Part shown: positions 2,565 through 15,125 of the stretch, in pieces | Numbering within the stretch: position 1 is the first letter of the stretch | How the letters are laid out: every line of letters starts with the position of its first letter | Source: an uncultured Puniceicoccaceae bacterium | GTDB lineage: Bacteria; Verrucomicrobiota; Verrucomicrobiia; Opitutales; Oceanipulchritudinaceae | DNA length: 51,473 bases | Assembly: GCA_964629165.1 (NCBI GenBank) | Contig: CAZVQJ010000001.1 | Coordinates: 1 to 51,473 of the forward strand | Direction of reading: 5' to 3' | Notes under the pieces: model-generated | Told to the model about the DNA's origin: nothing | The model's database searches: none | What the model saw: only the letters and a program-made list of their open reading frames with translations | Position numbers and translations under genes: made by a program

Positions 2565-4720
2565 GCCAGTATCTTGGCGATGGCGGACTGCAGGCGCCCG
2601 AAGTCGACGGGTTTGGTGAGGTGCTCGCCGAACCCGGCTTCGTGACAGGCGTCGATGTCGTCTTCCATGCCGTATCCACTCAGGCAGATTCCCCGGATAT
2701 CTGCCTGCAGGGAGCGCATCCGCTTCATGAGTTCGATGCCGCTTTCGTCGGGCAGTCCTACATCGGAAACGACGAGATCGAAATTCATTTCCTGGAAAAG
2801 TCGGTAACCTTCGGCGGCGGTTTCGGCATGTTCCACCGTGTATCCCGCACTTTGCAGGAGGCGTTTGAGAATCTTACCGGTGTCGCCATGATCCTCGACG
2901 AGGAGGATGTGTGGGGGCGCGTCTCCGTTGACTGGGGAGTGGACGGGAGAGGCGCACGGAGAGGAGGCCGGAGCATCGGGAAGCTCGGATGCGGGAAGGG
3001 TGACGACAAAGGTGGAGCCGTGTGAGTGACCCCGCGATTGCACTTCGATTGTGCCGTCATGGATCTCGATAATTGCCTTGGCGATGGCGAGGCCGAGACC
3101 GAGGCCACCCTCCGTTCCCTGCCTCGGTTTGCTATGGGTTTGCTCGAAGGGGAGGAAGATCCGTTCGAGGTCTTCGGAAGCGATTCCGAGGCCCTCATCG
3201 TGCACTTTCACGACGAGGCGTTGGTCCTGGATCTGTGCATGGAGGCGGATGGTGGCTCCGGGAGGGCTGAATTTTGCCGCGTTCTTGAGGAGGTTCCAGA
3301 AAACCTGTTGCAGGCGGGGCCCGTCTCCGACCACTCCGCAGCCTTCGATCTCGTCGATTTCAAGCTGCAGGTGCTGGGACTTTGCATCGATATCACCGTC
3401 GATAATCTGAACCGCATCGCGAAGCAGATCATCTGCCGCATGCAACTGACGATCGAGCTCGATCTTGCCGCGACTGACGCGAGTGAGATCGAGCAGGTCA
3501 TCGATGAGCCGGCTCTGGATGCCCGCGTTGCGTCGGATCATGGCGATGTCTTCGCGCACATCCGCCGGGATGCGAGGATCTTTCTCGAGAACTCCCGCCG
3601 CTGCGAGGACGGGTGTCAGGGGTGTGCGCAGTTCATGGGAAAGCATCGCAAGGAAGCGATCCTTGGCCTGGTTGGCCGCCTCCAATGCGGCCGCGTGCTC
3701 CTCCAGTGACTGCTGGCTGCGCAAGGTTTCGATCATGAGTGCACCTTGGGCGGCTATCCACTCGATCACCCGGAATTGCTCCTCTGTCCAGTGGGCGACT
3801 TCAGGGCTGCAGGCAACGAGCAAGCCAGCGGGTCCACGCTTGTGCGAGAGTGGCGTTGCCAGCATTGAGTGCACCGTGCGGTCGTTCCCGAAGGGCTCCG
3901 AAAGATCCGGTCGTTGCGACAGGTCGGAGACATAGGCAGTCCGGTTCTCGCGCAGGACGACGCTGGCGATCGAGTTGGATAGCGGCCATGCCCGTGGGAG
4001 TGAAGGTTCACCGGCCGCGAGAGCCTGCGACGCGAGCTCCATCTGGCCGCCATTTTGTTCGAGGATACCCACGCTTGTGGCGGGTGCCCCGATGATGGAG
4101 AGGGCGCGCTTGCACAGCTCCGCCAACATTTCTGCGGTCGAATGATTTTGGCGGAACGATTTGATCAGCCCTTCAAGGATCTCCTCACGCCCTGAAAGCC
4201 GGGTATTGAGGTCAACGAGATCTTCGTTCTGCCGCGTAACCTCTTCACTTTGTGCCTCGATTTCCTCATTCTGTTCGGCGAGTTCCTCGGCCTGCGCCTT
4301 GATTTCCTCGTTCTGCTGCAGGACCTCTTCGGTCTGCGCATCGAGTTCTGCGTTCTGGGCGGAGATCATCGCATTCCGCTGTTCCAGATGGGTCCTCAGG
4401 ACTACGATTGCGTGGACGACAACCGCACCGACCAGAATGTTGATGAGCGTGCTTCCGAGATAGAGCAGCGCGCCACGCGTCGAAACCACGTCTTCCGGCA
4501 TGACCCAGAACACCTTTGCGAGCGCCATGAGGACAAAGGAAACCGCCATCAACCAGACGTGCCAGAGGCGTCGGGTCCAGACGCATAACAGGATCGGAAG
4601 AACGAAGGTCAGGGGCAAAATGGTATCGTCGAACAGAAAGACGCGGACGTAGCCCCATCCCGCGATAAGCAGGACGACAACCGCAGTTGCGAGAAAAAGA
4701 GACGGTCGCGAAGTTTTCAT
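2561..4720 (-). CDS. hybrid sensor histidine kinase (TM region, repeat coiled coil, GAF, HisKA, HATPase_c, C-terminal receiver)
   Basis: H-box FLAMLSHELRTPLTPV. N/G boxes (NLLKNAAKFSP, DEGLGI, GGLGLGLAI). Receiver ILLVEDHGD...DLVVSDVGLPDESG...TKP. Start at ATG 4718-4720 (MKTSRPSLFLATAVVVLL), 4 nt after the cheR-like stop. The longer ORF to 5086 would overlap that gene. Confidence 0.9.
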   Translation of the reverse strand: MKTSRPSLFLATAVVVLLIAGWGYVRVFLFDDTILPLTFVLPILLCVWTRRLWHVWLMAVSFVLMALAKVFWVMPEDVVSTRGALLYLGSTLINILVGAVVVHAIVVLRTHLEQRNAMISAQNAELDAQTEEVLQQNEEIKAQAEELAEQNEEIEAQSEEVTRQNEDLVDLNTRLSGREEILEGLIKSFRQNHSTAEMLAELCKRALSIIGAPATSVGILEQNGGQMELASQALAAGEPSLPRAWPLSNSIASVVLRENRTAYVSDLSQRPDLSEPFGNDRTVHSMLATPLSHKRGPAGLLVACSPEVAHWTEEQFRVIEWIAAQGALMIETLRSQQSLEEHAAALEAANQAKDRFLAMLSHELRTPLTPVLAAAGVLEKDPRIPADVREDIAMIRRNAGIQSRLIDDLLDLTRVSRGKIELDRQLHAADDLLRDAVQIIDGDIDAKSQHLQLEIDEIEGCGVVGDGPRLQQVFWNLLKNAAKFSPPGATIRLHAQIQDQRLVVKVHDEGLGIASEDLERIFLPFEQTHSKPRQGTEGGLGLGLAIAKAIIEIHDGTIEVQSRGHSHGSTFVVTLPASELPDAPASSPCASPVHSPVNGDAPPHILLVEDHGDTGKILKRLLQSAGYTVEHAETAAEGYRLFQEMNFDLVVSDVGLPDESGIELMKRMRSLQADIRGICLSGYGMEDDIDACHEAGFGEHLTKPVDFGRLQSAIAKILA
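4190..4357 (-). repeat. four tandem 14-aa (42-nt) coding repeats inside the histidine kinase: QNAELDAQTEEVLQ / QNEEIKAQAEELAE / QNEEIEAQSEEVTR / QNEDLVDLNTRLSG
   Basis: Read directly from the translation between the last TM helix and the GAF domain. Double-heptad periodicity with an invariant QN(E/A)(E/D) start. Confidence 0.8.
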
Positions 4721-4724
4721 GGGC

Positions 4725-5588
4725 TCAGGCAGGTTTTCGAAAGATGCAGGGACCAAGTTTTTCGAGGGCGACGCCCCCGGGCGGGTGTTCGGCTTTTCCG
4801 CTGACGAGAAACCCTCCGGGAGCGAGTTCACGGATGAGGGAATGCCAGATGGTCTCTGCGGCGTTGACTTCGAGGTAGATCGCCATGTTGCGCCAGAGGA
4901 TGAGGTCCCATGGGCCCGGCTCTGCCTGTTGGAGAAGGTTGGCCTGCTTCCAGCGCAAGCTCTGGTGCAGGCGTGCGGTCGGCCGCACATTCCCCCGATA
5001 ATGGGAAAAATGTTGTTTCCAGAACGACCCGAGGTTGTTGATCGACTCGGTCGGGAATTCGCCTGCCTGCGCCTGCCGGATGGCATCTTCGCGACAGTCG
5101 GTACCGAGCAGATCGGACTCGTCGAGGAGGCCCGCCTCGTTCAGGAGGATCGCCACCGAGCAGAGTTCGCGTCCATCAGAACACGCTGCGCTCCAGACGC
5201 GAAGTGGCCGACCGAGGCAGGCAAGCCCGGGCACGACCAGGCTCCGGAGGTGCGCGAAGACGGTTTCGTCACGACAGAAGTCGGTGACTCCGAGGAGGAC
5301 GACGCTGACCGTCGCAGGCGCGAGTTCAGGCCGTGCTTTCAGTTTTGCTCGGGCATCCCGCAAATCGTTGACCCGCAGGAATCGCAGGCAGGCGGGCACC
5401 CGACGGTTGAGCGCACGACTGCGGTAGGAATCCGGTGACAATCCGACCAGATGGAACAATTCATGGAAGAATGTATCGACGCCTTCGATAGCGGAGGATG
5501 AATCCGTTTCACGCCCGCCCGTGGGGTGGGAAGGAAGCACCCTCCGGGGTTCCTTGACGCCGTGGAAGTAGAGACATTCAGACACCAT
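4725..5588 (-). CDS. CheR-type protein-glutamate O-methyltransferase-like protein
   Basis: CheR N-terminal helical part (FFHELFHLVGLSPDSYRSRALNRR), TDFCRDETVF, SAM-binding core LRVWSAACSDGRELCSVAILL, then DLILWRNMAIYL. ATG at 5586-5588. Confidence 0.85.
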   Translation of the reverse strand: MVSECLYFHGVKEPRRVLPSHPTGGRETDSSSAIEGVDTFFHELFHLVGLSPDSYRSRALNRRVPACLRFLRVNDLRDARAKLKARPELAPATVSVVLLGVTDFCRDETVFAHLRSLVVPGLACLGRPLRVWSAACSDGRELCSVAILLNEAGLLDESDLLGTDCREDAIRQAQAGEFPTESINNLGSFWKQHFSHYRGNVRPTARLHQSLRWKQANLLQQAEPGPWDLILWRNMAIYLEVNAAETIWHSLIRELAPGGFLVSGKAEHPPGGVALEKLGPCIFRKPA

Positions 5589-5770: not shown

Positions 5771-6388
5771 TCAGCCGGACTCGGCCGTTTCCTCCCAATC
5801 CCGTAGTTGAAGGAGGAGGCTCTCCCGCCTCGGTGCGAGGTCTTTTTTCACTACCCACGTATTCAGTTTCCAGATACCGGCAAAGGCGATCAAGGTACAT
5901 CCGCCCAATAGCACCGCCGGAACGGGCCATGGCATCGGACTTTCGACACCGACGGCGACGGCGAAGAGGAAAACAGGCACCGCGAGCGGCAGAAGATACC
6001 ACCAGATTACCCGCCGGAGTAGAAGAATCTGGTGTTCCACCTGAGCGAGGGCGCGGTGGATTTCGGCGAGGGGCGTGTCGGGAAGAGCCGCCAGCTTCCG
6101 GCGTTGCGTCGTGCGGTCAATCACGAGGAAAAGGGCGACGCCGAGGGAAGCGATCGCGATCAGGTAGGCGGAGGCCGTCGTGAGGGCGGGCGCTGATTGG
6201 CCGATCCAAACAAAGATCGTGGCCACGAGAACGGCGGCGGCGATCTCACGGGCGTCGCGCCAGACGATCGTACGGTTGAATGTGCGGGCGTCGAGGCGCA
6301 CCCGTTCGAGTTGTCGGGCAAATGGCATGGTGTCGGGGGGTTGGTTGTGGCTGGCTTTCCAGTGTTCCTTGCTCTCTTCAAAGTTCAT
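5771..6388 (-). CDS. 4-TM membrane protein co-transcribed with the ECF sigma factor (candidate non-canonical anti-sigma factor)
   Basis: Its start ATG overlaps the sigma-factor stop (ATGA at 6385-6388). About 45-aa cytoplasmic N-terminus, then four hydrophobic helices. No HxxxCxxC zinc anti-sigma motif. Confidence 0.6.
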   Translation of the reverse strand: MNFEESKEHWKASHNQPPDTMPFARQLERVRLDARTFNRTIVWRDAREIAAAVLVATIFVWIGQSAPALTTASAYLIAIASLGVALFLVIDRTTQRRKLAALPDTPLAEIHRALAQVEHQILLLRRVIWWYLLPLAVPVFLFAVAVGVESPMPWPVPAVLLGGCTLIAFAGIWKLNTWVVKKDLAPRRESLLLQLRDWEETAESG

Positions 6389-6891
6389 CGCGGTTCCTCC
6401 TGAAGGATGTTGTTGAGGCGTTGCCGGGCCCGGTGCAGGCGCACTTGGGCGGCGTTTTCGGAGATCCCGAGGATCTCCGCCATCTTCCGTCGGGGCGTCT
6501 CTTCGAGCGCGAGGAGGAGGATCGCCCGATCCAGTTCGGTTACCTGACGCAACGCTGCGTAGACGGCGGCGAGCCGGGCGGAGGACTCCGCATGATCATC
6601 AGCAGCGAGTTCTTCGGCCCGCGCCTGCAGTGGTTCCGGGGTGGGATGGCGTCGCTCCGTCCGGGCGCTTCTCATCGCCGTGTTGAGCCCTACCCGGTAG
6701 GCCCAGGTCGAAAGCATCGACTGTCCGTTGAACCGTGGCAGCCCCAGCCAGATCTGGAGGAGCATCTCCTGGAGGAGATCCTCTCGTTCGGCCGGCGCCA
6801 CAAAAGCGCCCGTGATCCTCCAGAGCATCGGGCGGAGGTCTTCGGCGCATTCGCGGAACATGGACTGTTTCTTTTCGTCATTCACGCTCAT
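6385..6891 (-). CDS. RNA polymerase ECF-type sigma-70 factor
   Basis: Region 2 (REDLLQEMLLQIW...FNGQS.LSTWAYRVGLN) and region 4 HTH (LDRAILLLALEE...KMAEILGISENAAQVRLHRARQRL). Confidence 0.9.
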   Translation of the reverse strand: MSVNDEKKQSMFRECAEDLRPMLWRITGAFVAPAEREDLLQEMLLQIWLGLPRFNGQSMLSTWAYRVGLNTAMRSARTERRHPTPEPLQARAEELAADDHAESSARLAAVYAALRQVTELDRAILLLALEETPRRKMAEILGISENAAQVRLHRARQRLNNILQEEPR

Positions 6892-6947: not shown

Positions 6948-8225
6948 TTAGAGCGCGCGGATGGCCCCGCAGAGGACGTCAGCCGTCTGGTCGATGTCTG
7001 CGTCGGTGTGTGCGGTGGAGAGAAAACACGTCTCATAGGCGCTCGGCGGAAGGTAGACTCCATTGTCGAGCGCATGGTGAAAGAGTTTCTTGAAATGAGA
7101 GGTCGTGCTCTTGACGGCGTCGTCGTAATTGCGCACGGGCTCGTCCGCGAAAAAGAGGGCAAACATGGAGCCCGTCTGCGGAACCTGGAGAGGCAGCCCC
7201 TTGTCGGAAGCAGCCGTGCGCAGGGCGGCTGCGAGGCGCGCGGCTTTCCGGTCGAGATCTGCGAAGGGCTGGATAGTCTCCAGTTCCGTCAGGGCGGCCA
7301 GTCCGGCGGCCATCGCGAGCGGGTTACCGGAGAGGGTTCCGGCCTGATAGACGGGACCGAGAGGAGCAATATGCTCCATGAGGTCACGGCGACCTCCGAA
7401 AGCGCCCACGGGCAGCCCGCCGCCGATCACCTTGCCCATCGCGGTCAGGTCTGGTCGCAGGCCTTCGATCGATTGCACGCCGCCAAGCGCGAGCCGGAAC
7501 CCCGTCATGACCTCGTCGAAAATGAGGATGGCGCCGGATTGATCGCAGAGGGCCCGCAATGTCTGCAAGAATCCCGCTAGGGGCAGGATCAGTCCGCAGT
7601 TGGCGGGGTAGCTTTCTACAATGACTCCGGCGATATCGTCGCCGTGTTCCTGAAAAGCGGCTTCCAGGGCAACGGGATCATTGTAGGGCAGGACAATCGT
7701 GAGCGCGGCAAGCTCGGCCGGGATGCCTGCGCTGTCAGGATTGCCGAGGGTGAGCGCACCGGAGCCGGCTTTGACGAGGAGGGAATCTGCGTGCCCATGG
7801 TAGCAGCCTGCAAACTTGACGATCTTTTTTCGGCCGGTGGCACCCCGAGCGAGTCGGATGCAGCTCATGCAGGCCTCTGTCCCGCTGTTGACGAACCGCA
7901 CCATTTCCACGCTGTCGACGAGATCGACGACCCTCTGGGCGATGGCCACTTCTGTCGCGTTCGGCGTGCCGAAGCTGGTCCCGCGCTGTGCGGCATCGAC
8001 GACCGCTTCGCGAATACCTGCGTGATTGTGCCCGAGAATGGCGGGACCCCATGTGCAGACGTAGTCAATGAGTTCGCGTCCATCGACGGTATGGAGCCGC
8101 GCACCGTCGGCGCGTTCCGTGAAAAAAGGAGCGCCGCCGACAGAGCGGAATGCCCGCACAGGACTATTGACGCCTCCGGGAAGGATCCGCTGCGCGTGTT
8201 CGAAAAGGGCGGAAGACGATGCCAT
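6948..8225 (-). CDS. hemL: glutamate-1-semialdehyde 2,1-aminomutase
   Basis: [32 protein letters not shown], the FDEVMTGFR motif and [16 protein letters not shown] (PLP lysine region). ATG at 8225 preferred over the TTG at 8237. Confidence 0.95.
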
Positions 8226-8276
8226 CCTTCCATGCAAACATCGGGAGCGAAGCAGGGGAAGCGAAAGTGGCGCCGG

Positions 8277-9725
8277 TTACGGCACGCGGGGGAGGCGGGG
8301 GAGGAGCGCGGAGCCGAGTTCGCGCGCTCTTTCCCGATCGAATTGCGGACCGATCGGCAACTCGGCCTGCGTGTTCAAGCGTTCGAGCAGCACCCCGCGC
8401 TCGGGCTCCACCATCAGTCCCATCAGGCGCCCGGTTTTCGCAAAGACATAATCGCCACGGCTCGGCTGAAACTCACCCCGCAGTTGACTGAAAAGGCTGC
8501 GGTTCACCGAGAGGTATCGTTGGCCACCCGGGACCAGTCGAAAGTCGGTTTCACCATAGAGGCCGAGCTGGTTCGAGATCAGCACGGCCTGGGGGAAGCG
8601 AAAGGGTTCTTCCGCAAGTTCGAAGGGTGTGAGGGCGGTTCCCTCGAGGAAGCGCGCGGGAATCTCGACGCCGATGAGGCGTGGGTCGGCGGCGAGAAAG
8701 CTGATTTCAACGATTTCGAGGTTTCTTCCTCCGAGCGTGAAGTTCCCGTGGACCGATCGAAGGCGATTGAGAGAAGACGGCTGGAAAGGCCCCTGGGATG
8801 CCTCGAAGACTGCCAGAACCCGTCCGCCTTCGCGCACAAGAACCGCATCGAGAGAATGTGTCTCCGTCCGGGATCCGATGAAGGCGTCGAGGGTCGCTTC
8901 GAAGGTGAGCGGCAGCCGGTTATTCTCATAGCGGGAGAAAATGAGATTTGAGGACACCGGCTGGGCCCGGCGCATCTCCTCCTCGATCGCTCCGGAACGT
9001 TCGGCAAGCTCTGTTACGCCGATGGCCAGTTGCTCGGACCGAACTTCAGCCCGCTGTCGTTCGAGGCGGGCGAGTTCGACTTCGGTGCGGGCCGTTGCGA
9101 GATTTTCCTGGAGAATCGCACGCTCGGTCTGGGCAACTTGCAGTTGTCCTTCCAGTTGCTGTCTCTGGCGCGTCAGTTCCTGTGCTTCCTGCGTGGTCTG
9201 GTCGAGGAGGGACTCGGCTTCAGCCAAGGCTGCGAGGCGCTCCTGCAACTCCTCCTGCAGGGCTCGAGCCCGCGAGGCTTCTGTTTCCAGGTTTTCCGCG
9301 AGGGAAGCCCGCGACTGGAGCGTTTCCTCGAGAGCGGCTTCCGTCGCTGCCTTTTCCTCTGCGAGGATGGCGCTCTGTTCGCTGAGTTGGCGGGCTTCTT
9401 CTTCGAGACGCGCCCGTTCTGCCGCGAGTTCATCGCGTTCCGCCTGGGTCAGGTTCAGGTCCTCCGAGAGCGCCGAGCGCTCTTCTTCGAGGGCCACTTG
9501 GGCGGCTTCGAGGGCTTCTTTTTCAGCTGCGAGGGCCTCCCGTTGAGCGGCTTCACTTTCGAGGGATAGCTGGAGCAGTTCCAACATGTCGTCCTGCATG
9601 CCTTCATCGACAGCAGGCGCCGTATCCAGCTCGGGTGCTGGTTCCCGTGTGGCGTCAAAATCAACCAGCGCAAGCATGCTCAGCAGGAGAAAATCGCAAA
9701 TGATGAGCAGGATCGACTTGTTCAT
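8277..9725 (-). CDS. single-pass membrane protein with Asp-containing TM helix, ~200-aa Glu/Ala/Leu/Gln-rich coiled coil and beta-rich C-terminal domain (function unknown)
   Basis: N-terminus MNKSILLIICDFLLLSMLALV (D11 inside the helix). Residues ~45-260 have heptad-like composition (EALAAEKEALEAAQVALEEERSALSEDL...). The C-terminal ~220 aa show alternating beta-like patterns. Starts 37 nt downstream of the preceding gene. Confidence 0.75.
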   Translation of the reverse strand: MNKSILLIICDFLLLSMLALVDFDATREPAPELDTAPAVDEGMQDDMLELLQLSLESEAAQREALAAEKEALEAAQVALEEERSALSEDLNLTQAERDELAAERARLEEEARQLSEQSAILAEEKAATEAALEETLQSRASLAENLETEASRARALQEELQERLAALAEAESLLDQTTQEAQELTRQRQQLEGQLQVAQTERAILQENLATARTEVELARLERQRAEVRSEQLAIGVTELAERSGAIEEEMRRAQPVSSNLIFSRYENNRLPLTFEATLDAFIGSRTETHSLDAVLVREGGRVLAVFEASQGPFQPSSLNRLRSVHGNFTLGGRNLEIVEISFLAADPRLIGVEIPARFLEGTALTPFELAEEPFRFPQAVLISNQLGLYGETDFRLVPGGQRYLSVNRSLFSQLRGEFQPSRGDYVFAKTGRLMGLMVEPERGVLLERLNTQAELPIGPQFDRERARELGSALLPRLPRVP

Positions 9726-9762
9726 GCGGGAGCGGAGGGGGGCGGGAAGCGGCGACGGGCGA

Positions 9763-11454
9763 TCAGTCCGATAATCCTGGGGCGAGGGAGGTGGCGGGGC
9801 GGCTGTCGGTGGCTTCGAGAATCAGGCGACGTCGAAACGGGCGCAGAAAAAAGATCTTCAGGATCGCGACGAAAACGATCCCGAAGAGGGAGGACGTATA
9901 GGCCGCCATGAGGCTCGCATCGACAAATTCGAGGACGATAAAGACGAGCGAAGAAACGGTGCCGCCGAGGCCGACGTAAAGCCCGAGATCGAAGAGGTTT
10001 TCCTCGTTGTCGAGCAGACGCAGCTTCAGGGGCGCGGATCCTGGGTAGTGTCGGATCTCGTTGATCTTGAGCATACTGAATGTGAAAATCAACACCTGCA
10101 GCACAAAGAACAGGATCAGGACAAGGATGGTCGCTTGGTCGATCATGGTGGATTCTGAGTCGGTTTCATTGAACGGAGCAGAGGGTACAATCTGGGCAAA
10201 TTGAAGGCGAAGGCTGCCCGCTTCGTTCGGATCAAATTGCAGGAGTTTTGGTTCGGTGGCGATCCAGAGGAAGCCGGCGAGGGTCATCGCGCTGACGAGG
10301 TGGAAGGCGTGCACCGCTTTGCCCCGATTGATCGGAAGAGGGCGTGTGAAGAGCCGGATGAACGTCTCGACGGCGAGGGCACAGGCAAAACCCCCGATGA
10401 TGAGGAGCAGCGCCTTGAGGCCCAGAGCAAACTGCGGCTGGCTCTCGCTGAACCCCCGCATGAAGGCCTGCCCGGGTTCGAGGGGAAGTGCATGCATGAA
10501 GGCGGGGGCTTCGTAGAGCGGACGATCGAAGGCTGACATGGAAGCGAGCGCCCCCTGTCCCATCCCGGTCGCCAGTTGCACAACCGGCCATCCTTCTTCC
10601 GGCCGGGCGAGAATATAACGGGCGACAGAGGCAGGGTTCCCGCTCAGGAGGGCGGCTGCGTAGAGTGTCGGAAAGCGCTCCTCCGCCAGCTGGGTGGCGG
10701 CGTTGAGATCGTTCAGCTCCTCCGGAGAGCGGACGTGCTGGAGAAGCGCAGAGAGCTGTTTCCAGTTGGTGCGTTTGCCGATCGTGAGGAGGGCGAGATA
10801 GACGTTTTCAAGGCGGGCGAGAGACGCCGGATTCTGCGAGGATTGTGCCGCTTGATCGCGTATGTAGCGCGACATGTCGGGACTCCATGCCCCGCTTTGT
10901 TCGAGCAGTGCGGTTGTCAGGATGGTCGCGTCGAGCGGGTGACCGGCGGCGGAGTAAACAGGCAGGAATCTCTGGTAGCCTGACAACTCCCGGGTTGCGA
11001 GGAGGGTCTGAACGGTCTGGTTGCTTGAATGGCGCAGGTACCCGAACAGGTGTTCGCGGTGACTGCCAGGCAGGAGCATGGCGAGGACGGTACGGGAACC
11101 GGCTTCCACCGTGTCGGGAGTGAGACCAGCCCGTTCCAGCCATTGCTCGTAGTAGGGTGCCGGGCCCCCGCTGAGCTGATAGTCGGGATGTTCTGCAAGG
11201 ATCTGCTGCAGCTGCGCTTGCAGATTGGCATCCCGTGCCGAGCCGCCGGCAAGGATGAGTTCGGCGGGTCCCGTGTCCCCCGCGTAAAGGAAATCCATTG
11301 CGAGGTCTTCGAGGGTGGGCGTGCCCTTGGCGGCCTCCGCGAGGACGAGGGGTGAGACCGCGCGAAAGTGAAGCGGGATGCTCAATGCGAGCCAGGCAAA
11401 GGCGGCGGCCAACAAACCATAAAAAACCGGCTGCAATCCACGAGGAAGTCGCAT
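9763..11454 (-). CDS. polytopic membrane protein with large N-terminal helical domain and MotA/ExbB/TolQ-like C-terminal TM hairpin (function unknown)
   Basis: The C-terminal LGLYVGLGGTVSSLVFIV...ASLMAAYTSSLFGIVFVAILKIFFL resembles the MotA_ExbB signature (GLLGTV.G....AL.TT..GL.VAIP). ATG at 11454 (MRLPRGLQPVFYGLLAAAFAWLAL) chosen. The longer ORF to 11607 would run into the def promoter region. Confidence 0.65.
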   Translation of the reverse strand: MRLPRGLQPVFYGLLAAAFAWLALSIPLHFRAVSPLVLAEAAKGTPTLEDLAMDFLYAGDTGPAELILAGGSARDANLQAQLQQILAEHPDYQLSGGPAPYYEQWLERAGLTPDTVEAGSRTVLAMLLPGSHREHLFGYLRHSSNQTVQTLLATRELSGYQRFLPVYSAAGHPLDATILTTALLEQSGAWSPDMSRYIRDQAAQSSQNPASLARLENVYLALLTIGKRTNWKQLSALLQHVRSPEELNDLNAATQLAEERFPTLYAAALLSGNPASVARYILARPEEGWPVVQLATGMGQGALASMSAFDRPLYEAPAFMHALPLEPGQAFMRGFSESQPQFALGLKALLLIIGGFACALAVETFIRLFTRPLPINRGKAVHAFHLVSAMTLAGFLWIATEPKLLQFDPNEAGSLRLQFAQIVPSAPFNETDSESTMIDQATILVLILFFVLQVLIFTFSMLKINEIRHYPGSAPLKLRLLDNEENLFDLGLYVGLGGTVSSLVFIVLEFVDASLMAAYTSSLFGIVFVAILKIFFLRPFRRRLILEATDSRPATSLAPGLSD

Positions 11455-11545
11455 CTCGTTGAAAGGCTGTCGAACTGCGTGCGTAATTGCAACCGCTGGA
11501 GATTGCCCTTTACAGTTGTTGGGCAGGCGGCTGATTTGAAGAACG

Positions 11546-12118
11546 ATGATCCTGCGTGTGACGGAATACGGGGAGGACGTGCTCCGACAGAAGGGGGAGG
11601 CGGTCAAGGTCTTCGACGACGGCCTCCGGCAGCTCGCTGCCGATATGTTGGAAACGATGTACGCGGCGGAAGGGATCGGTCTCGCCGCCCAGCAGGTGGG
11701 GTATCCCGTTCAACTCTGTGTAATCGACATCAAGGACATCGATGACGAGCTCCTTGCCTATGAGCTCGATGGCAAGCGTCCCCCGATCGAGATCATCATG
11801 CCGATGGTCCTCGTGAATCCGGTGGTGCGGGTGCTTCCCGGGCCGTCCCAGACGGAGGAGGAAGGCTGTCTTTCATTTCCTGGACTTCGCGGTGAAGTTC
11901 CGCGGGGTGATGCGATCGAAGTCCAGTATCAGGATCTTGACGGTGCTTCGCATCGCCTGCTGGCGCAGGGTTGGTTTGCGCGCGTCGTCCAGCACGAGGT
12001 CGATCACCTCAACGGCGTGCTTTTCATCGACCACATGGAAGCGCGTCAGATCCGCTTGCTGGAGAGTAAGATCAAGAGAATCCGTCGAGCGAGCCGGGAA
12101 CGCCTGCGGGGCGTCTGA
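11546..12118 (+). CDS. def: peptide deformylase
   Basis: GIGLAAQQVG, EGCLSFPG and QHEVDHLNG, the three canonical PDF motifs. Confidence 0.95.
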   Translation: MILRVTEYGEDVLRQKGEAVKVFDDGLRQLAADMLETMYAAEGIGLAAQQVGYPVQLCVIDIKDIDDELLAYELDGKRPPIEIIMPMVLVNPVVRVLPGPSQTEEEGCLSFPGLRGEVPRGDAIEVQYQDLDGASHRLLAQGWFARVVQHEVDHLNGVLFIDHMEARQIRLLESKIKRIRRASRERLRGV

Positions 12119-12135
12119 ACCGGAATGTTGGCTGC

Positions 12136-12528
12136 ATGATCCGTCAAACACGGCAGCGTCAAGCGATCATGACCGCCCTGGAATCTGCCGGTGGGCCACT
12201 CACGCCGCGCGAACTTTTCGAGGTGGCCCGCGAGCACTTCCCTGAGCTGGGCCTGCGGACCGTATATCGGCAGATTCGGGAAATGGTGGCGGCGGGACAG
12301 TTGGTCGGGACCGACTATCCGGGACAGCCGGTGCGCTACGAACCCGTCACGGGCGAGCACCGTGCGCATTTCATCTGCCGGACTTGCGATCGTGTCTTCA
12401 CCTTTCCGAGAGCCGTCCCGGATGTGGAGGTCGAAGCGCCCCCATCCTTCGAGATCACGGGGCAGGAAACCGTTTTTTACGGCAAGGGGCGCGGCTTGTG
12501 CGAACGCTGCGACGGGCAACCGGGCTGA
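12136..12528 (+). CDS. Fur-family metalloregulator (Fur/Zur/PerR type)
   Basis: Winged-helix N-terminus (RQRQAIMTALESAGGPLTPRELFEVAREHFPELGLRTVYRQIREM), HFICRTCDRV and LCERCDG (two CxxC pairs). Starts 17 nt after def. Confidence 0.85.
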   Translation: MIRQTRQRQAIMTALESAGGPLTPRELFEVAREHFPELGLRTVYRQIREMVAAGQLVGTDYPGQPVRYEPVTGEHRAHFICRTCDRVFTFPRAVPDVEVEAPPSFEITGQETVFYGKGRGLCERCDGQPG

Positions 12529-12580
12529 TATCCGCACAGCACGACCTGGCTCCCGCTCCGTCAGCCCCGCCGGGTCTTTC

Positions 12581-13864
12581 TCAGAAATGCGCAGTGAGAG
12601 CGAGTGTAGCGCGGAAACGATCATAGTCGCCCGTCCCGTAATCGGAGTGGTAGTCGGACCAGGAGATGGACGCGCGGGCGGTGCCCCAGGTTCCGACCGT
12701 GCGGCTGAGGCCTGCCGTTGCCGTGATTCGACTGGTTTTGCGGTCCCGGTCGATGAACTCGATGTCGTCCTCGTCACTGGAATCGCTCCGTACCGTCTCA
12801 TAGTCGGTGTAGGTCCAGTCGAGGCCCGTGAAGAAGGACATCCGCTGGGAGAGGCGGCGGTTGGCGGAAATGGAGATCGAGGTGCGGTCGGAATCGGAAC
12901 CGTCGAGCAAGGCTTCGAAACGTTTGGTGGCGGAAATACGGGCGGAGGTTCGCTCGTTCATAGCCCAGTTCAGGCCCGCCGTGAAGGTGGGCGTGGTGGA
13001 AGTGCTTTCGCCATCACGTTCTCGCCGCTGGAGTCCGGCGGACAGGTTGCCGGTAATTTTGGCGGTGAGCTGTCCGTTGACGCCGAGGTTGGCCCCGTAG
13101 GTGTCGGTGTCGGCGCGGAAATCGCTGTCAAATTCGGTTTTGCTGTAGGTTCCGGTCAAACGATAGCTGAGGCGCCGACTCTGTTCCCAGTCGATATAGG
13201 TCGAATACCCGAAGCGCTCCGAACCGACCGCTGGATTTCCTTCGACAAAATCGTCGATCGCCGGTTCATAGCGAAGTACTTCCCCGCGCGGATCCCGCTT
13301 GTTGTAGGTAAAACCGGCGCCGATGCTGGTTTGGCGGCTGAGGAGATAGCTGACCCGGGCGTTCCCGCGGTAGTCCCGTTCCCGGACACGCCCCTGGAGC
13401 GCATCATTGGTTCCGGTATCCTCCTGAATATCGAAGCCCACCGTATAGCGGAGCCTGCGTGTGCCTGCGGATTCAGACGTGTCGATAATCCACCCGAGAT
13501 AGATGTCTTCGTAGTCGAGGGTACCGTAATCGAGGAACTTTGCGGCGACGGCCGTGATTTCGACCCCGAGGCGAACGTGGCGATAAGGCTGAACCAGTCC
13601 CACGTTGGCCTGCCCCATGATCATGAAATCCTCCGCTTCGTACCGCTGGCCGGTCACGTTGGTGTCATAGGTCAGCGACGCCGTGACCGACGGGGTGACC
13701 TCAATTCGGTCGAAAAAGGAATCCTCGTACTGTGCAGTGGCGGCAGCGGCGAGTGCGAGGGATGTTCCGGAGGCGAGCACGTTCAGGAGCTTCCGCTTCC
13801 GTCCGCGCTGGCGGCGGGTGAAACAGCAGTTGGGAGCCATAAGAGCAAGAATAACGAATTTCAT
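12581..13864 (-). CDS. outer-membrane beta-barrel protein, exopolysaccharide-locus associated
   Basis: Signal-like N-terminus (RKRKLLNVLASGTSLALAAAATAQ). Alternating hydrophobic/polar beta-strand pattern throughout. C-terminal ...ATLALTAHF with terminal Phe. Last gene of the minus-strand GT operon. An alternative ATG exists at 13840. Confidence 0.8.
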   Translation of the reverse strand: MKFVILALMAPNCCFTRRQRGRKRKLLNVLASGTSLALAAAATAQYEDSFFDRIEVTPSVTASLTYDTNVTGQRYEAEDFMIMGQANVGLVQPYRHVRLGVEITAVAAKFLDYGTLDYEDIYLGWIIDTSESAGTRRLRYTVGFDIQEDTGTNDALQGRVRERDYRGNARVSYLLSRQTSIGAGFTYNKRDPRGEVLRYEPAIDDFVEGNPAVGSERFGYSTYIDWEQSRRLSYRLTGTYSKTEFDSDFRADTDTYGANLGVNGQLTAKITGNLSAGLQRRERDGESTSTTPTFTAGLNWAMNERTSARISATKRFEALLDGSDSDRTSISISANRRLSQRMSFFTGLDWTYTDYETVRSDSSDEDDIEFIDRDRKTSRITATAGLSRTVGTWGTARASISWSDYHSDYGTGDYDRFRATLALTAHF

Positions 13865-13876
13865 TCTTCCGCAACG

Positions 13877-15115
13877 TCAAACCAATGATTCCGAAGTCCC
13901 CATGCGGTCGAGGAGGCGAGCCCAGCGCCCCAATGCGAGCGATTGCTCGTAGTGGCCATGGAAGAGGGCATGCGCTCGCTGTCCCATCGTCGCGCGCAGC
14001 TCCGGCTTCTCTGCGAGAACCTTCACGGCATCGGCCAGGGCGGAGCCGTTTCCCTGCGCGACAGAGATGCCAACTCCTTCGTGTTCAAGGACTCGTGAAA
14101 GGCTCGCGGAGGGTTCGCCCACGAAAATGGCCGGGCGTCCCGCCGCCATGACCCCATAGAACTTGCTTGGGAAAACGAGGGGCGTGCAATCCGGCTGGAG
14201 GGAGATCCAGTGCACATCGGGCACGGACAGGCTCTGGCTCAGCAAGGAGCGGTCTTGGTAGGGCTGAAAAATCGTATAATCCTTCAGCTCATCCGGGAGG
14301 TTTGTCCTCATTTTGTCGTGCAAAGCGCCGGAACCGATGAACAGGAAGCGGATCTTCGGAAGGCGGTCGACGAGCAGTTTTGCGGCCGACAAAAAGGTAT
14401 CGTAGTCATGGACGCGCCCGAGATTGCCCGAGTATCCAAGGACAAACGCATGATCCAGCCCCCAAGCCTTCCGGAGCGGATTATCTTCGGGATCGACGGG
14501 AAAAACGGTGTCGCCGCTCGACCAGTTCGGGAGGACGGAGATGGCCTCCGGTGCCAGGCCCTGGCAGATAAAGTGAGCCCGCATGTCTTCGCTGATCGCC
14601 ACGACATGCATTCGTGGGCGGAGGCTGAGGTTGCGCAGGACCTGGAGGAAACGGAGAGCGATCCGCGCAACGCGGGCAGGGCGCTGCACCGCGCTGACTA
14701 TTTCCGGAAAAACATCCTGACTCCAATGAACCTGACGGACTCCTTTCAGAAACGAAGGCAGCCACGTCACCACGGTCATCAGAGGCGGATCGGTCAGCGT
14801 CACGAGGACCGCCCGCCATGGCAGTTGAAAGGTGAGATAGAAGGCGAGGCTGAGATAGAAGGTCAGGTAGTCGATGGCGCGACCGACGAGTTCTTGACGA
14901 CCAAAGTTGGTCGACCACAACCGCCGGATCTCGACGCCATCGCGTGTTTCCCGCGCTTCGAGATCGGCGTTCGGCTTCCGGTAGAGCTGACGGCTCGCAA
15001 TCACAGTGACCCGGTGTCCCCGTTGAACGAGATCGGAGGAGAGATCGGAGAGGAGCTGGGCGGTTGCCGAGTCATCCGGCGCGGCGAATCGATTGACAAA
15101 AACAAGCGGGCGCAT
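13877..15115 (-). CDS. GT4-family glycosyltransferase (WcaI/WbuB-like)
   Basis: MRPLVFVNRFAAPDDSATAQLLSDLSSDLVQRGHRVTVIAS is the typical WcaI-type N-terminus. The C-terminal half is GT-B fold (GYSGNLGRVHD..., FPSKFYGVMAAGRP). ATG at 15115. Confidence 0.88.
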   Translation of the reverse strand: MRPLVFVNRFAAPDDSATAQLLSDLSSDLVQRGHRVTVIASRQLYRKPNADLEARETRDGVEIRRLWSTNFGRQELVGRAIDYLTFYLSLAFYLTFQLPWRAVLVTLTDPPLMTVVTWLPSFLKGVRQVHWSQDVFPEIVSAVQRPARVARIALRFLQVLRNLSLRPRMHVVAISEDMRAHFICQGLAPEAISVLPNWSSGDTVFPVDPEDNPLRKAWGLDHAFVLGYSGNLGRVHDYDTFLSAAKLLVDRLPKIRFLFIGSGALHDKMRTNLPDELKDYTIFQPYQDRSLLSQSLSVPDVHWISLQPDCTPLVFPSKFYGVMAAGRPAIFVGEPSASLSRVLEHEGVGISVAQGNGSALADAVKVLAEKPELRATMGQRAHALFHGHYEQSLALGRWARLLDRMGTSESLV

Positions 15116-15125
15116 GGGCGATCGT

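What the first reader, a model, noticed from the sequence alone, without database searches (positions are those of the whole stretch)
8277..11454. Candidate undescribed ion-driven membrane motor: MotA/ExbB-like protein plus Asp-in-TM coiled-coil partner
Two same-strand genes lie 37 nt apart, upstream of hemL. Gene 1 (about 563 aa) has an N-terminal TM helix, a ~350-aa helical soluble domain and a C-terminal TM cluster. The last hairpin of that cluster (LGLYVGLGGTVSSLV....ASLMAAYTSSLFGIVFVAI) resembles the MotA/TolQ/ExbB channel signature, but the loop before it is only ~27 aa, against ~90 aa in ExbB. Gene 2 (482 aa) starts with one TM helix containing an acidic residue (ILLIICDFLLLSMLAL, D11, codon 9693-9695). 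That position is reminiscent of the essential Asp of MotB/ExbD/TolR. It then has a ~200-aa continuous Glu/Ala/Leu/Gln coiled coil instead of a plug or peptidoglycan-binding domain. It ends in a ~220-aa beta-rich domain whose strand pattern loosely recalls a chymotrypsin-like fold but lacks a GDSGG catalytic motif. I do not recognise this architecture as Mot, Tol, Exb, Agl, GldLM or Zorya. It could be a new stator-like unit that transmits force through a long coiled-coil stalk.
Basis: partly seen in the sequence, partly recalled or inferred. Interest (0 to 1): 0.7.

Follow-up and report, generated by a model that had tools for sequence, protein, structure and literature searches.

The report
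Possible new membrane ion-motor gene pair
Two always-adjacent, unannotated genes of Opitutales-type Verrucomicrobia look like a very divergent cousin of the ion-driven ExbB/TolQ-type membrane motors, whose partner protein carries a long rigid stalk ending in a protease-like head; the resemblance is suggestive but not proven.

Summary
Both belong to large families annotated only as hypothetical. Gene 1 has 771 cluster representatives. The pair is adjacent or overlapping in all 9 loci examined.

Pfam, NCBIfam, PADLOC, a PDB profile search and Foldseek do not place gene 1 in MotA/ExbB. Targeted profile-profile comparison does align its last two transmembrane (TM) helices to TolQ/ExbB TM2-TM3 in register: LYVGLGGTV matches PYVGLFGTV, and T499 and position 522 fall on TolQ T145 and T178. 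The hhalign probability is only 26-30% (P about 6e-4), but the score beats every shuffle and real membrane-protein decoys (Mann-Whitney p = 1e-6). Predicted topology matches ExbB.

Gene 2's Asp11 is invariant in 120 of 120 homologues. Its TM helix and gene 1's TM5/TM6 are the best-conserved segments. Gene 2's TM helix shows no sequence similarity to ExbD/TolR. An unbroken 205-residue heptad coiled coil follows it, then an HtrA-like trypsin-fold domain (Foldseek E = 3.5e-6). That domain has an H-D-S triad in 83 of 120 homologues; the window protein has Glu in place of His.

Best reading (about 50%): a new, highly divergent 5:2-type motor variant.

The parts
9763..11454 (-). Gene 1: 563-aa polytopic inner-membrane protein with six predicted TM helices (candidate A subunit)
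   Evidence: ORF. The start at 11454 is fixed by alignment with 44 homologues. AlphaFold2 mean pLDDT 87.9. 771 representatives at E <= 1e-3. No Pfam, NCBIfam or PADLOC family.
11371..11433 (-). Gene 1 TM1 (residues 8-28), predicted to run from cytoplasm to periplasm
   Evidence: Helix 8-24 in the model. The N-terminal tail has 2 Arg and no acidic residue.
10438..11370 (-). Gene 1 all-helical soluble domain (residues 29-339), predicted periplasmic, with no detectable structural relative
   Evidence: pLDDT is mostly above 90. Foldseek against PDB and BFVD gives nothing at E <= 0.001. Net acidic, and flanked by TM helices whose charge pattern places it outside the cytoplasm. Invariant residues include G96, R133, G171, P173 and E216.
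10255..10437 (-). Gene 1 TM2-TM3 hairpin (residues 340-400), less conserved
   Evidence: Helices 340-369 and 379-400. Mean top-residue frequency is about 0.44. No similarity to TolQ/ExbB: hhalign score 10.9.
9805..10137 (-). Gene 1 C-terminal three-helix core (TM4, short cytoplasmic loop, TM5, TM6; residues 440-550): the candidate TolQ/ExbB-like module
   Evidence: It aligns collinearly with TolQ TM1, TM2 and TM3. hhalign probability 26-30%, P = 5-7e-4. The score exceeds all shuffles and negative controls. It also exceeds real membrane-protein decoys.
9934..9987 (-). TM5 (residues 490-507), motif LGLYVGLGGTV with invariant T499 (codon 9958-9960)
   Evidence: This is the most conserved segment of gene 1, with top-residue frequency 0.86. 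It aligns to TolQ 138-146, PYIGLFGTV, putting T499 on TolQ T145.
9844..9912 (-). TM6 (residues 515-537), motif AAYxS(T/S)LFGI, with invariant K533 (codon 9856-9858)
   Evidence: Top-residue frequency 0.84. It aligns to TolQ 174-182, with position 522 on T178 and G525 on G181. The same register is found against MotA TM4.
8277..9725 (-). Gene 2: 482-aa bitopic protein (candidate B subunit or shaft)
   Evidence: ORF. 147 homologues, all hypothetical proteins. It lies directly downstream of a gene-1 homologue in 9 of 9 loci.
9660..9716 (-). Gene 2 N-terminal TM helix (residues 4-22) with invariant Asp11-Phe12 (D11 codon 9693-9695)
   Evidence: D11 and F12 are present in 120 of 120 homologues. The TM helix has top-residue frequency 0.82, against 0.45-0.48 for the coiled coil and C-terminal domain and 0.34 for the linker. 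K3 lies on the inside and an acidic stretch follows the helix.
8976..9590 (-). Gene 2 continuous heptad coiled coil (residues 46-250), about 30 nm long if extended
   Evidence: No Pro and 3 Gly. One heptad phase holds throughout. Periodicity exceeds 1000 of 1000 shuffles. Only generic coiled-coil matches, such as SMC-type. The length in nm is inferred from 0.15 nm per residue.
8316..8975 (-). Gene 2 C-terminal trypsin/HtrA-fold domain (residues 251-470). Triad positions are E308 (8802-8804), D347 (8685-8687) and S422 (8460-8462)
   Evidence: AlphaFold2 mean pLDDT 89.8. Foldseek matches Deg2, DegS, DegP and HtrA1 at E = 3.5e-6, probability 1.0, TM-score 0.4-0.5. H-D-S is present in 83 of 120 homologues; the window's clade has Glu at 308.

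Best explanation
The two genes encode one inner-membrane complex. It is most likely a very divergent relative of the ion-driven MotA/ExbB/TolQ-type '5:2' motors.

Proposed mechanism:
- The last three TM helices of gene 1 (TM4-TM6) are the ExbB/TolQ-like core. Several copies would form a ring whose TM5/TM6 hairpins line a central pore. The pore-lining residues would include the ring of T499 and the hydroxyl residues at 521/522.
- The N-terminal helices of a gene 2 oligomer sit in that pore. Asp11 lies at about the same membrane depth as the Thr ring.
- Protons or Na+ entering from the periplasm would bind and leave Asp11, possibly making and breaking a contact with invariant K533. This would drive relative rotation or a power stroke.
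- The cytoplasmic loop of gene 1 is only about 20-27 residues, so the output must be periplasmic. Gene 2's uninterrupted coiled coil (about 30 nm) would act as a shaft. It carries an HtrA-like head to the peptidoglycan or outer-membrane region.
- Gene 1's 310-residue periplasmic helical domain would form a collar or anchor around the shaft.

What is shown: the anatomy, the conservation, the gene pairing, the HtrA-like fold, and a weak but specific in-register similarity to TolQ/ExbB.

What is inferred: physical interaction of the two proteins, stoichiometry, ion flow, movement, and the target of the head domain.
For: - The pair is conserved and adjacent or overlapping in 9 of 9 loci, while the flanking genes vary.
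- The best-conserved segments are gene 1 TM5/TM6 (0.86 and 0.84) and gene 2's TM helix (0.82), against 0.34-0.69 for every other structured segment of the two proteins.
- D11 is invariant in 120 of 120 homologues. T499, S521, G525 and K533 are invariant in the 45-sequence alignment.
- hhalign aligns TM5 and TM6 to TolQ TM2 and TM3 in register, with T499 on TolQ T145 and position 522 on T178. Scores are 28-30, P = 5-7e-4. The local-shuffle null is 15 +/- 3 with a maximum of 23.5, and 0 of 60 shuffles per target reach the observed score. Negative controls score 11-18.
- The same register is recovered against MotA, at 16% probability.
- 17 single ExbB/TolQ sequences score higher against the gene 1 profile than 27 real multi-TM decoys from verrucomicrobial loci (Mann-Whitney p = 1e-6) and than 201 decoys of all kinds (p = 4e-10).
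- For homologue P0043, MotA_ExbB is the best Pfam hit, and it falls on TM5-TM6.
- The charge distribution gives the TM4-TM6 core an ExbB-like topology: outside to inside, inside to outside, outside to inside, with the C-terminus in the cytoplasm.
- Established 5:2 families are themselves barely visible to each other with HMMER. An ExbB+TolQ profile finds MotA only at E = 0.035-0.17, and no other kind of 5:2-motor subunit appears among the matches at E <= 10.
- The literature already proposes Asp-bearing pore helices fused directly to periplasmic effectors, without a TolR gene (PMC12204202).
Against: - No HMM-level match to PF01618, to ExbD or MotB models, or to any PADLOC model.
- Profile search of PDB sequences finds nothing relevant.
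- Foldseek with the full-length gene 1 model finds no ExbB, TolQ or MotA.
- hhalign probability is only 26-30%, against 96% for the TolQ-versus-MotA positive control.
- The conserved Pro of TolQ TM2 (P138) is Leu492 here.
- The cytoplasmic domain typical of A subunits is missing.
- Gene 2's TM helix is not more similar to ExbD/TolR than decoys are (p = 0.98).
- HtrA-family protease domains are trimeric (established knowledge). This sits awkwardly with a dimeric B subunit.
- No multimer model could be run.
Confidence: 0.5

Rival explanations
1. A static membrane-anchored periplasmic HtrA-like protease or pseudoprotease, together with its polytopic scaffold or regulator. Gene 2 would be a quality-control or regulated-proteolysis enzyme held on a long stalk. 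Gene 1 would anchor or gate it. D11 would only form a structural salt bridge, for example with K533. No ion flow or movement would be involved.
For: - The C-terminal domain has an HtrA/DegS fold.
- His-Asp-Ser is present in 83 of 120 homologues, in the right order. The Asp-to-Ser spacing is 75 residues, which matches that of DegP (D135 to S210, from memory).
- N-terminally anchored HtrA and DegS proteins are common (established knowledge).
- An invariant Lys sits in gene 1 TM6 near the depth of D11.
- The homology of gene 1 to ExbB is statistically weak.
Against: - The Ser motif is PS-R-G-D rather than GxSGG.
- Retention of Ser and Asp is not coupled to retention of His. The window's clade has Glu308 yet keeps D347, S422 and the whole cassette.
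- This model does not explain why the TM helix and gene 1 TM5/TM6 are far more conserved than the head domain.
- It does not explain why the gene 1 core resembles TolQ/ExbB specifically.
Confidence: 0.25
2. An envelope-spanning structural tether or spacer, or a division or morphogenesis factor. Gene 2's coiled coil would set or sense the distance between inner and outer membrane, in the way Lpp does, or resemble the TolA domain II stalk. Gene 1 would be its membrane receptor. No energy transduction would occur within the pair itself.
For: - An unbroken coiled coil of about 30 nm, comparable to the width of the periplasm (the length is inferred).
- Housekeeping neighbours (def, fur, hemL) and apparently one copy per locus.
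- TolA-like three-part layout: TM helix, long helix, globular head.
Against: - An invariant acidic residue buried in the TM helix is unusual for a passive anchor.
- TolA and TonB use an SHLS/His motif rather than Asp (PMC12204202).
- Coiled-coil length varies from 193 to 301 residues among homologues, without strict heptad multiples.
Confidence: 0.1
3. Gene 1 is an independent channel, transporter or sensor whose TM5 motif resembles TolQ by convergence or chance. Gene 2 is functionally coupled only through operon organisation.
For: All HMM and Foldseek searches fail to link gene 1 to any family. hhalign probability is below 30%.
Against: - Strict adjacency, with overlapping stop and start codons in several loci, holds down to 30% identity.
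- The conservation peaks fall in the TM segments of both proteins.
- The match is in register over two helices and to two reference families.
Confidence: 0.1

Closest known systems
ExbB-ExbD / TolQ-TolR (Ton and Tol 5:2 proton motors; Pfam PF01618 and PF02472)
   Same: Adjacent A and B genes. The three-TM core has the same predicted topology. The TM2-like motif Y-[VI]-G-L-x-G-T-V and the TM3-like x-T-x-x-G align in register, including the two pore threonines. The B-like partner has a single N-in TM helix with an invariant Asp about 8 residues from the cytoplasmic boundary. The output is periplasmic.
   Different: No HMM-level match. The roughly 90-residue cytoplasmic domain is reduced to about 20-27 residues. 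Three extra TM helices and a 310-residue periplasmic domain are added at the N-terminus. The TM2 Pro is replaced by Leu. The partner has no ExbD/TolR periplasmic fold; it has a 205-residue coiled coil plus a trypsin-fold head. No TonB- or TolA-like third gene is present.
TPH-vWA proteins paired with TolQ-like genes (proposed in Mol Biol Evol 2025, PMC12204202)
   Same: The concept is the same: no tolR/exbD gene, and a periplasmic effector protein that carries its own Asp-bearing 'transpore helix', predicted to sit inside the pentamer and turn directly. These are reported in Proteobacteria and Verrucomicrobia.
   Different: Their head domain is von Willebrand A, not trypsin-like. Their linker is described as disordered or proline-rich rather than a rigid coiled coil. 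They mostly occur as heterologous pairs. Their motor gene is recognisable as tolQ, whereas gene 1 is not.
GldL-GldM / PorL-PorM (type IX secretion and gliding motor)
   Same: A small A subunit without a torque-generating cytoplasmic interface. The B subunit has a very short N-terminal tail, one TM helix, then a long periplasm-spanning dimer with a helical part followed by beta-rich domains. A TM charge pair may operate (GldL E49 with GldM R9, compared with D11 and K533 here, with polarity inverted). This comparison rests on established knowledge.
   Different: No Pfam match to any family, GldM included. The head domain matches HtrA rather than Ig-like domains. Gene 1 has six TM helices and a large periplasmic domain. 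GldL has two TM helices and a cytoplasmic domain.
MotA-MotB / PomA-PomB flagellar stators
   Same: TM5/TM6 align in the same register to MotA TM3/TM4 (hhalign probability 16%). The partner has a TM Asp.
   Different: No cytoplasmic torque-generating domain, no plug, no OmpA-like peptidoglycan-binding domain, and no conserved flagellar gene context.
HtrA/DegS/DegP family (S1C serine proteases)
   Same: The double beta-barrel fold of gene 2's C-terminal domain (Foldseek probability 1.0). Order and approximate spacing of His, Asp and Ser in most homologues. An N-terminal membrane anchor, as in DegS.
   Different: No sequence-level similarity. No PDZ domain. The Ser motif is PS-R-G-D instead of GNSGG. 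The window protein has Glu in place of His. A 205-residue coiled coil separates the anchor from the fold.
Zorya ZorA-ZorB
   Same: A divergent 5:2-type pair in which one subunit carries a very long helical extension.
   Different: No PADLOC match for gene 1 at all, and only generic coiled-coil matches for gene 2. In Zorya the long tail is on ZorA and is cytoplasmic. The genomic context here is housekeeping rather than a defence island.

Membership tests
MotA/TolQ/ExbB A subunit (PF01618) | Profile-HMM match above the family threshold | tested here: not met
   The window protein gives no hit. Only 1 of 45 homologues hits, at E = 0.17 and 12.1 bits against a cut-off of 22.9. The family consensus sequence gives no hit.
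MotA/TolQ/ExbB A subunit (PF01618) | Profile-profile similarity of the TM2-TM3 (or MotA TM3-TM4) hairpin | tested here: inconclusive
   hhalign probability is 26-30%, P = 5-7e-4, in register over both helices. The score is above all shuffles (0 of 120 full column permutations; 0 of 60 local shuffles per target alignment), above the negative controls and above the decoys. The TolQ-versus-MotA positive control gives 96%.
MotA/TolQ/ExbB A subunit (PF01618) | Three-TM core with N-terminus outside and C-terminus inside, and a short periplasmic turn between the last two helices | tested here: met
   AlphaFold2 helices at 440-469, 490-507 and 515-550. The charge distribution follows the positive-inside rule. 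This is a prediction only.
MotA/TolQ/ExbB A subunit (PF01618) | Conserved pore-lining Thr in both hairpin helices (TolQ T145 and T178; ExbB T148 and T181) | tested here: met
   T499 is invariant. Position 522 is Thr in at least 90% of homologues and Ser in the window. Both align to TolQ T145 and T178. The alignment itself has low confidence.
MotA/TolQ/ExbB A subunit (PF01618) | Conserved Pro at the start of the first hairpin helix (TolQ P138, MotA P173) | tested here: not met
   The aligned residue is the invariant Leu492.
MotA/TolQ/ExbB A subunit (PF01618) | Helical cytoplasmic domain between TM1 and TM2 of the core | tested here: not met
   The loop is only about 20-27 residues and contains one short helix, 474-488.
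MotA/TolQ/ExbB A subunit (PF01618) | Pentamer enclosing a dimer of B-subunit helices | not testable with these tools
MotB/ExbD/TolR B subunit | Single N-in TM helix with an essential, invariant Asp near the cytoplasmic side, encoded next to the A gene | tested here: met
   D11 is present in 120 of 120 homologues, 8 residues after K3. TolR D23 lies 8 residues after E15. The gene is directly downstream of a gene-1 homologue in 9 of 9 loci.
MotB/ExbD/TolR B subunit | Sequence or profile similarity to ExbD/TolR/MotB, and their periplasmic fold | tested here: not met
   No Pfam or NCBIfam hit. hhalign probability is below 1%. The TM profile is not closer to 19 ExbD/TolR sequences than to 193 decoys (p = 0.98). 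The periplasmic part is a coiled coil plus a trypsin fold.
HtrA / S1 trypsin-like serine proteases | Double beta-barrel chymotrypsin fold | tested here: met
   Foldseek matches Deg2, DegS, DegP and HtrA1 at E = 3.5e-6 to 1e-3, probability 1.0, using a model with pLDDT 89.8.
HtrA / S1 trypsin-like serine proteases | His-Asp-Ser catalytic triad with a GxSGG nucleophile motif | tested here: not met
   The window protein has E308, D347 and S422. 83 of 120 homologues have H-D-S, but the motif is PS-R-G-D. The positional assignment rests on secondary-structure register rather than a residue-level superposition.
GldLM / PorLM | Matches to GldL/GldM family models; Ig-like periplasmic domains in the B subunit | tested here: not met
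   No Pfam or NCBIfam match. The head domain matches HtrA.
Zorya ZorAB | Match to ZorA/ZorB models in PADLOC-DB | tested here: not met
   Gene 1 has 0 PADLOC families at E <= 10. Gene 2 has only coiled-coil noise such as JetC, DndD and LmuB.

The most novel reading that the evidence does not exclude
A widespread (771 cluster representatives), so far unrecognised class of ion-driven rotary or power-stroke motor in Opitutales/Puniceicoccales-type Verrucomicrobiota. The Asp-bearing axle protein would itself be a rigid coiled-coil shaft of about 30 nm that crosses the periplasm. It would carry an HtrA-like protease or peptide-binding head. The ring subunit would carry a novel-fold periplasmic collar. 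The result would be a PMF-powered, periplasm-spanning 'drive shaft' delivering work, or a protease, to the peptidoglycan or outer membrane. It would be so divergent from MotA/ExbB that no current profile library detects it.
Probability: 0.35. Interest if true: 0.85.

Novelty: new variant of a known kind. Interest (0 to 1): 0.62.

Why it matters
Only a handful of ion-driven membrane motor families are known: Mot/Pom, Exb/Tol, Agl, GldLM and Zorya. Each new one has revealed a new way of delivering inner-membrane energy to the cell envelope.

If this pair is a motor, it would do three things:
- It would extend the superfamily well beyond what sequence profiles can see.
- It would show a new output design: a rigid coiled-coil shaft with a protease-fold head, plus a periplasmic collar on the ring subunit.
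- It would give Verrucomicrobiota, whose envelope biology is poorly known, a testable energy-coupling system.

If it is not a motor, it is still a large, conserved and entirely unannotated two-protein envelope module. It has a novel-fold 310-residue periplasmic domain and a coiled-coil-tethered HtrA-like domain.

Tried and rejected
- **Library scans.** Pfam, NCBIfam and PADLOC scans of both proteins and of 45 and 55 family members gave only coiled-coil noise, plus one sub-threshold MotA_ExbB hit. Consensus sequences of the gene 1 core hit nothing relevant against Pfam or NCBIfam.
- **PDB sequence search.** The gene 1 profile against PDB sequences gave nothing.
- **Foldseek with gene 1.** The full-length model against PDB and BFVD gave only meaningless low-TM hits. 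The model could not be cropped to the TM core, and no coordinates were available in the sandbox.
- **TolQ HMM against the family.** hmmsearch with the TolQ HMM against 233 family members scored no better than against reversed sequences. Even so, the best-scoring domain fell on TM5 in most of them.
- **Gene 2 N-terminus against TolR/ExbD.** Tried three ways, with no signal.
- **Gene 2 head against DegS by sequence.** No signal.
- **Search of 1.84 billion representatives.** The top 150 were all full-length family members, so the distant tail, where a linking family might lie, could not be seen.
- **Promoter and terminator scan.** No informative sites in the intergenic regions.
- **Readings rejected.** GldLM, Zorya and flagellar-stator readings were rejected on the membership tests. 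Flagellar genes lie 4 kb away in one Pelagicoccus locus, but this is not conserved. The UPF0242 (chlamydial) Pfam hits in 10 of 55 gene 2 homologues were not resolved and are probably coiled-coil noise.
- **Co-variation.** Inter-protein co-variation was not attempted, because only about 25 gene pairs could be matched.
- **Unused search.** The third word-indexed protein search was left unused. Its top-120 listing would again have been filled by the family itself.

Full report
**1. Observation**

Gene 1 is the ORF 9763-11607. Alignment with 44 homologues fixes its start at the ATG at 11454, giving 563 aa. Its TGA stop is at 9763-9765. Gene 2's ATG is at 9725-9723, so the spacer is 37 nt. D11 is the GAT codon at 9693-9695.

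hemL follows at 6948-8237 (Aminotran_3, E = 2.7e-68). def and fur lie divergently upstream. No terminator-like site falls in the short intergenic gaps. The nearest named homologues come from Opitutales and Puniceicoccales (Verrucomicrobiota).

**2. A conserved, unannotated cassette**

Gene 1 has 304 word-indexed homologues, and every one that carries a source name is called hypothetical. In an exhaustive profile search it has 771 cluster representatives at E <= 1e-3 and 326 at E <= 1e-30. The top 150 are all full-length proteins of about 550 aa. Gene 2 has 147 homologues.

In all nine loci examined, a gene of about 550-580 aa with no Pfam hit sits directly upstream of a gene 2 homologue. These loci are the window, L001, L002, L087-L089 and L104-L106, and they reach down to about 30% identity. 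Stop and start codons often overlap. Each of the five downstream products I translated begins with the LLxIxxDFLL helix. The flanking genes differ, except for a frequent divergent def(-fur) pair.

**3. Gene 1 anatomy**

AlphaFold2 (mean pLDDT 87.9) predicts the following elements:
- TM1 at residues 8-24.
- A 310-residue all-helical domain.
- TM2 at 340-369 and TM3 at 379-400.
- A disordered acidic loop.
- TM4 at 440-469.
- A loop of about 20 residues containing one short helix.
- TM5 at 490-507, a 7-residue turn, and TM6 at 515-550.

The charge distribution puts the N-terminus, the 370-378 loop, the 470-489 loop and the C-terminus in the cytoplasm. The large domain is therefore periplasmic.

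That periplasmic domain has no structural neighbour at E <= 0.001 in PDB or BFVD.

Conservation is sharply uneven. TM5 scores 0.86 and TM6 0.84, against about 0.5 elsewhere. Invariant residues include Q453, N483, E484, L492, Y493, G495, G498, T499, S521, F524, G525, K533, R538 and R541.

**4. Is the core MotA/ExbB-like?**

Profile-against-sequence methods say no:
- Pfam, NCBIfam and PADLOC find nothing. One homologue of 45 (P0043) has MotA_ExbB as its best Pfam hit, on residues 492-532, but only at E = 0.17.
- The family consensus sequence does not hit MotA_ExbB.
- hmmsearch of PDB sequences finds nothing.
- The TolQ HMM scores family members no better than reversed sequences.

This negative result has limited weight. 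An ExbB+TolQ profile itself sees MotA only at E = 0.035-0.17, and no other kind of 5:2-motor subunit appears among its matches at E <= 10.

I therefore built reference alignments from 80 TolQ loci, E. coli ExbB/TolQ/MotA and 15 diverse plasmid-borne ExbB-like genes. I then ran hhalign against the gene 1 core. The results were:
- Against a 233-sequence alignment of the core, TolQ/ExbB gives a score of 28-30, P = 5-7e-4 and probability 26-30%.
- The alignment is in register over both helices. LYVGLGGTV aligns to PYVGLFGTV, with T499 on TolQ T145. AAYxS(T/S)LFG aligns to ALIATAIG, with position 522 on T178 and G525 on G181.
- A relaxed alignment is collinear, with TM4 on TolQ TM1.
- The same register appears against MotA TM3/TM4, at 16% probability.

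The controls were:
- Full column shuffles: mean 13.3 +/- 2.4, maximum 23.8, 0 of 120 reach the observed score.
- Local 12-column shuffles: 15 +/- 3, maximum 23.5, 0 of 60 per target alignment.
- Other parts of gene 1 and the ExbD alignment score 11-18.
- 201 ORFs from the same kind of genomes: 12.7 +/- 2.8. One outlier, probably non-membrane, scores 25.8.
- 27 multi-TM decoys: 13.8 +/- 2.1, maximum 19.7.
- 17 single ExbB/TolQ sequences average 19.1, and 8 of them exceed every multi-TM decoy. Mann-Whitney gives p = 1e-6 and p = 4e-10.
- The positive control, TolQ/ExbB against MotA, gives 96%.

If gene 1 is a relative, it is therefore far more remote than MotA is from TolQ.

Two features that define A subunits are absent: the TM2 proline (Leu492 here) and the cytoplasmic helical domain.

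**5. Gene 2 anatomy**

*TM helix.* The N-terminus, MNK-SILLIICDFLLLSMLAL, is the most conserved part of the protein (0.82). D11 and F12 are present in 120 of 120 homologues. D11 lies 8 residues after K3, which is the same spacing as TolR D23 from E15. However, the helix shows no sequence similarity to ExbD/TolR above decoys (p = 0.98).

*Coiled coil.* Residues 46-250 have no Pro. One heptad phase holds throughout, and periodicity exceeds 1000 of 1000 shuffles. This argues for an unbroken stalk of about 30 nm (inferred from 0.15 nm per residue) rather than a hairpin. Stalk length varies from 193 to 301 residues across the family.

*Head domain.* The C-terminal domain (pLDDT 89.8) matches HtrA/DegS/DegP/Deg2 protease domains, with Foldseek E = 3.5e-6, probability 1.0 and TM-score 0.4-0.5. 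There is no sequence-level similarity.

Even so, positions 308, 347 and 422 are His, Asp and Ser in 83 of 120 homologues. They sit at the strand ends expected for a trypsin-fold triad. The Asp-to-Ser spacing is 75 residues, as in DegP (D135 to S210, from memory).

The window's clade has Glu308. The Ser motif is PS-R-G-D. Retention of Ser and Asp is not coupled to retention of His. The head may therefore be an atypical protease in most lineages and a binding module in this one. I could not settle this.

**6. Mechanism**

The most economical model is a stator-like complex:
- A ring of gene 1 subunits, whose TM5/TM6 hairpins surround the Asp-bearing helices of gene 2.
- Ion binding and release at D11, possibly alternating with a contact to the invariant K533. 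This would echo the GldL-E49/GldM-R9 pair with inverted polarity (established knowledge).
- Mechanical output carried through the coiled-coil shaft to the HtrA-like head.
- The periplasmic domain of gene 1 acting as collar or anchor.

Interaction, stoichiometry, ion flow and movement are all inferred. HtrA domains trimerise (established knowledge), so a 5:2 stoichiometry is not assured.

The main rival is a static, membrane-anchored HtrA-like protease or pseudoprotease with a scaffold partner. It explains the head domain. It does not explain why conservation peaks in the TM segments, or why the core resembles TolQ/ExbB specifically.

**7. Comparison with what is known**

The closest mechanistic relatives are ExbBD and TolQR. 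GldLM shares the layout of the B subunit.

The closest published concept is the TPH-vWA proteins of PMC12204202. In those, an Asp-bearing transpore helix is fused to a periplasmic effector and pairs with a tolQ-like gene, without a tolR gene. They are reported in Proteobacteria and Verrucomicrobia.

The pair here differs in four ways: the head fold, the rigid stalk, the single-copy B gene, and an A subunit that no profile library recognises.

A recent survey of MotAB relatives notes non-flagellar members with large periplasmic domains. That survey was built from sequence-detectable homologues (PMC12505986).

Full-text searches found no description of this family.

**8. Verdict**

The pair is best filed as a candidate new and highly divergent variant of the 5:2 ion-motor kind, at about 50% confidence. 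It cannot be called a member of PF01618 on present evidence.

Noticed in passing
window 8802-8804 (E308), 8685-8687 (D347), 8460-8462 (S422); gene 2 homologues P0121-P0240: Most gene 2 homologues (83 of 120) have His-Asp-Ser at these three positions of the trypsin-fold head. The window's clade (about 17 sequences) has Glu instead of His but keeps Asp and Ser. This may be a lineage-specific loss or change of catalytic activity.
   Followed up: partly
gene 1 homologues P0043 and P0055 (TM5): Two family members carry YVGLFGTV, the exact TolQ/ExbB TM2 motif, instead of YVGLGGTV. In P0043, MotA_ExbB is the top Pfam hit, although below threshold.
   Followed up: partly
window 9856-9858 (K533) and 10096-10098 (Q453): There is an invariant Lys near the cytoplasmic end of gene 1 TM6 and an invariant Gln in mid-TM4. 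K533 could pair with gene 2's D11, like the GldL-GldM charge pair with inverted polarity.
   Followed up: no
gene 2 homologues of 523-544 aa (e.g. P0163, P0199, P0230), just before the C-terminal domain: One subfamily has an insertion of tandem seven-residue GxxVSQL-type repeats ('X-X-X-Leu-X-X-Gly heptad repeat' in one JGI annotation). It lies between the coiled coil and the head domain.
   Followed up: no
window 5771-6891 (minus strand): An ECF-type sigma factor (6385-6891; Sigma70_r2 and r4_2) overlaps by 4 nt a 205-aa membrane protein with no Pfam hit (5771-6388). This is probably its anti-sigma factor. Both lie just downstream of hemL.
   Followed up: partly
window 2561-5588 (minus strand): A CheR-type methyltransferase (4725-5588) lies next to a GAF-HisKA-HATPase-REC hybrid kinase with a coiled-coil segment (ORF 2561-5086). 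The two ORFs as listed overlap by about 360 nt, so the kinase start is probably further downstream.
   Followed up: no
window 12581-17368 (minus strand): A BBP2-type beta-barrel porin (12581-13864) is followed by two GT4 glycosyltransferases (13877-15232 and 15686-17368). This looks like part of a surface-polysaccharide locus.
   Followed up: no
L106 (Pelagicoccus sp. SDUM812003) 11885-13482: Flagellar basal-body genes (rod protein, fliE, fliF) lie about 4 kb downstream of the pair in this one genome. This is not seen in the other eight loci, so it is probably coincidental.
   Followed up: partly
window 11546-12528 and loci L001, L087, L089, L105, L106: Peptide deformylase, often together with fur, is divergently transcribed immediately upstream of gene 1 in 6 of 9 loci. 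It is the only recurrent neighbour.
   Followed up: partly
gene 2 homologues (alignment A2): 10 of 55 members give weak Pfam hits (best E = 5.8e-5) to UPF0242_N, a chlamydial family. This could be coiled-coil noise or a real link across the PVC superphylum. It was not resolved.
   Followed up: no
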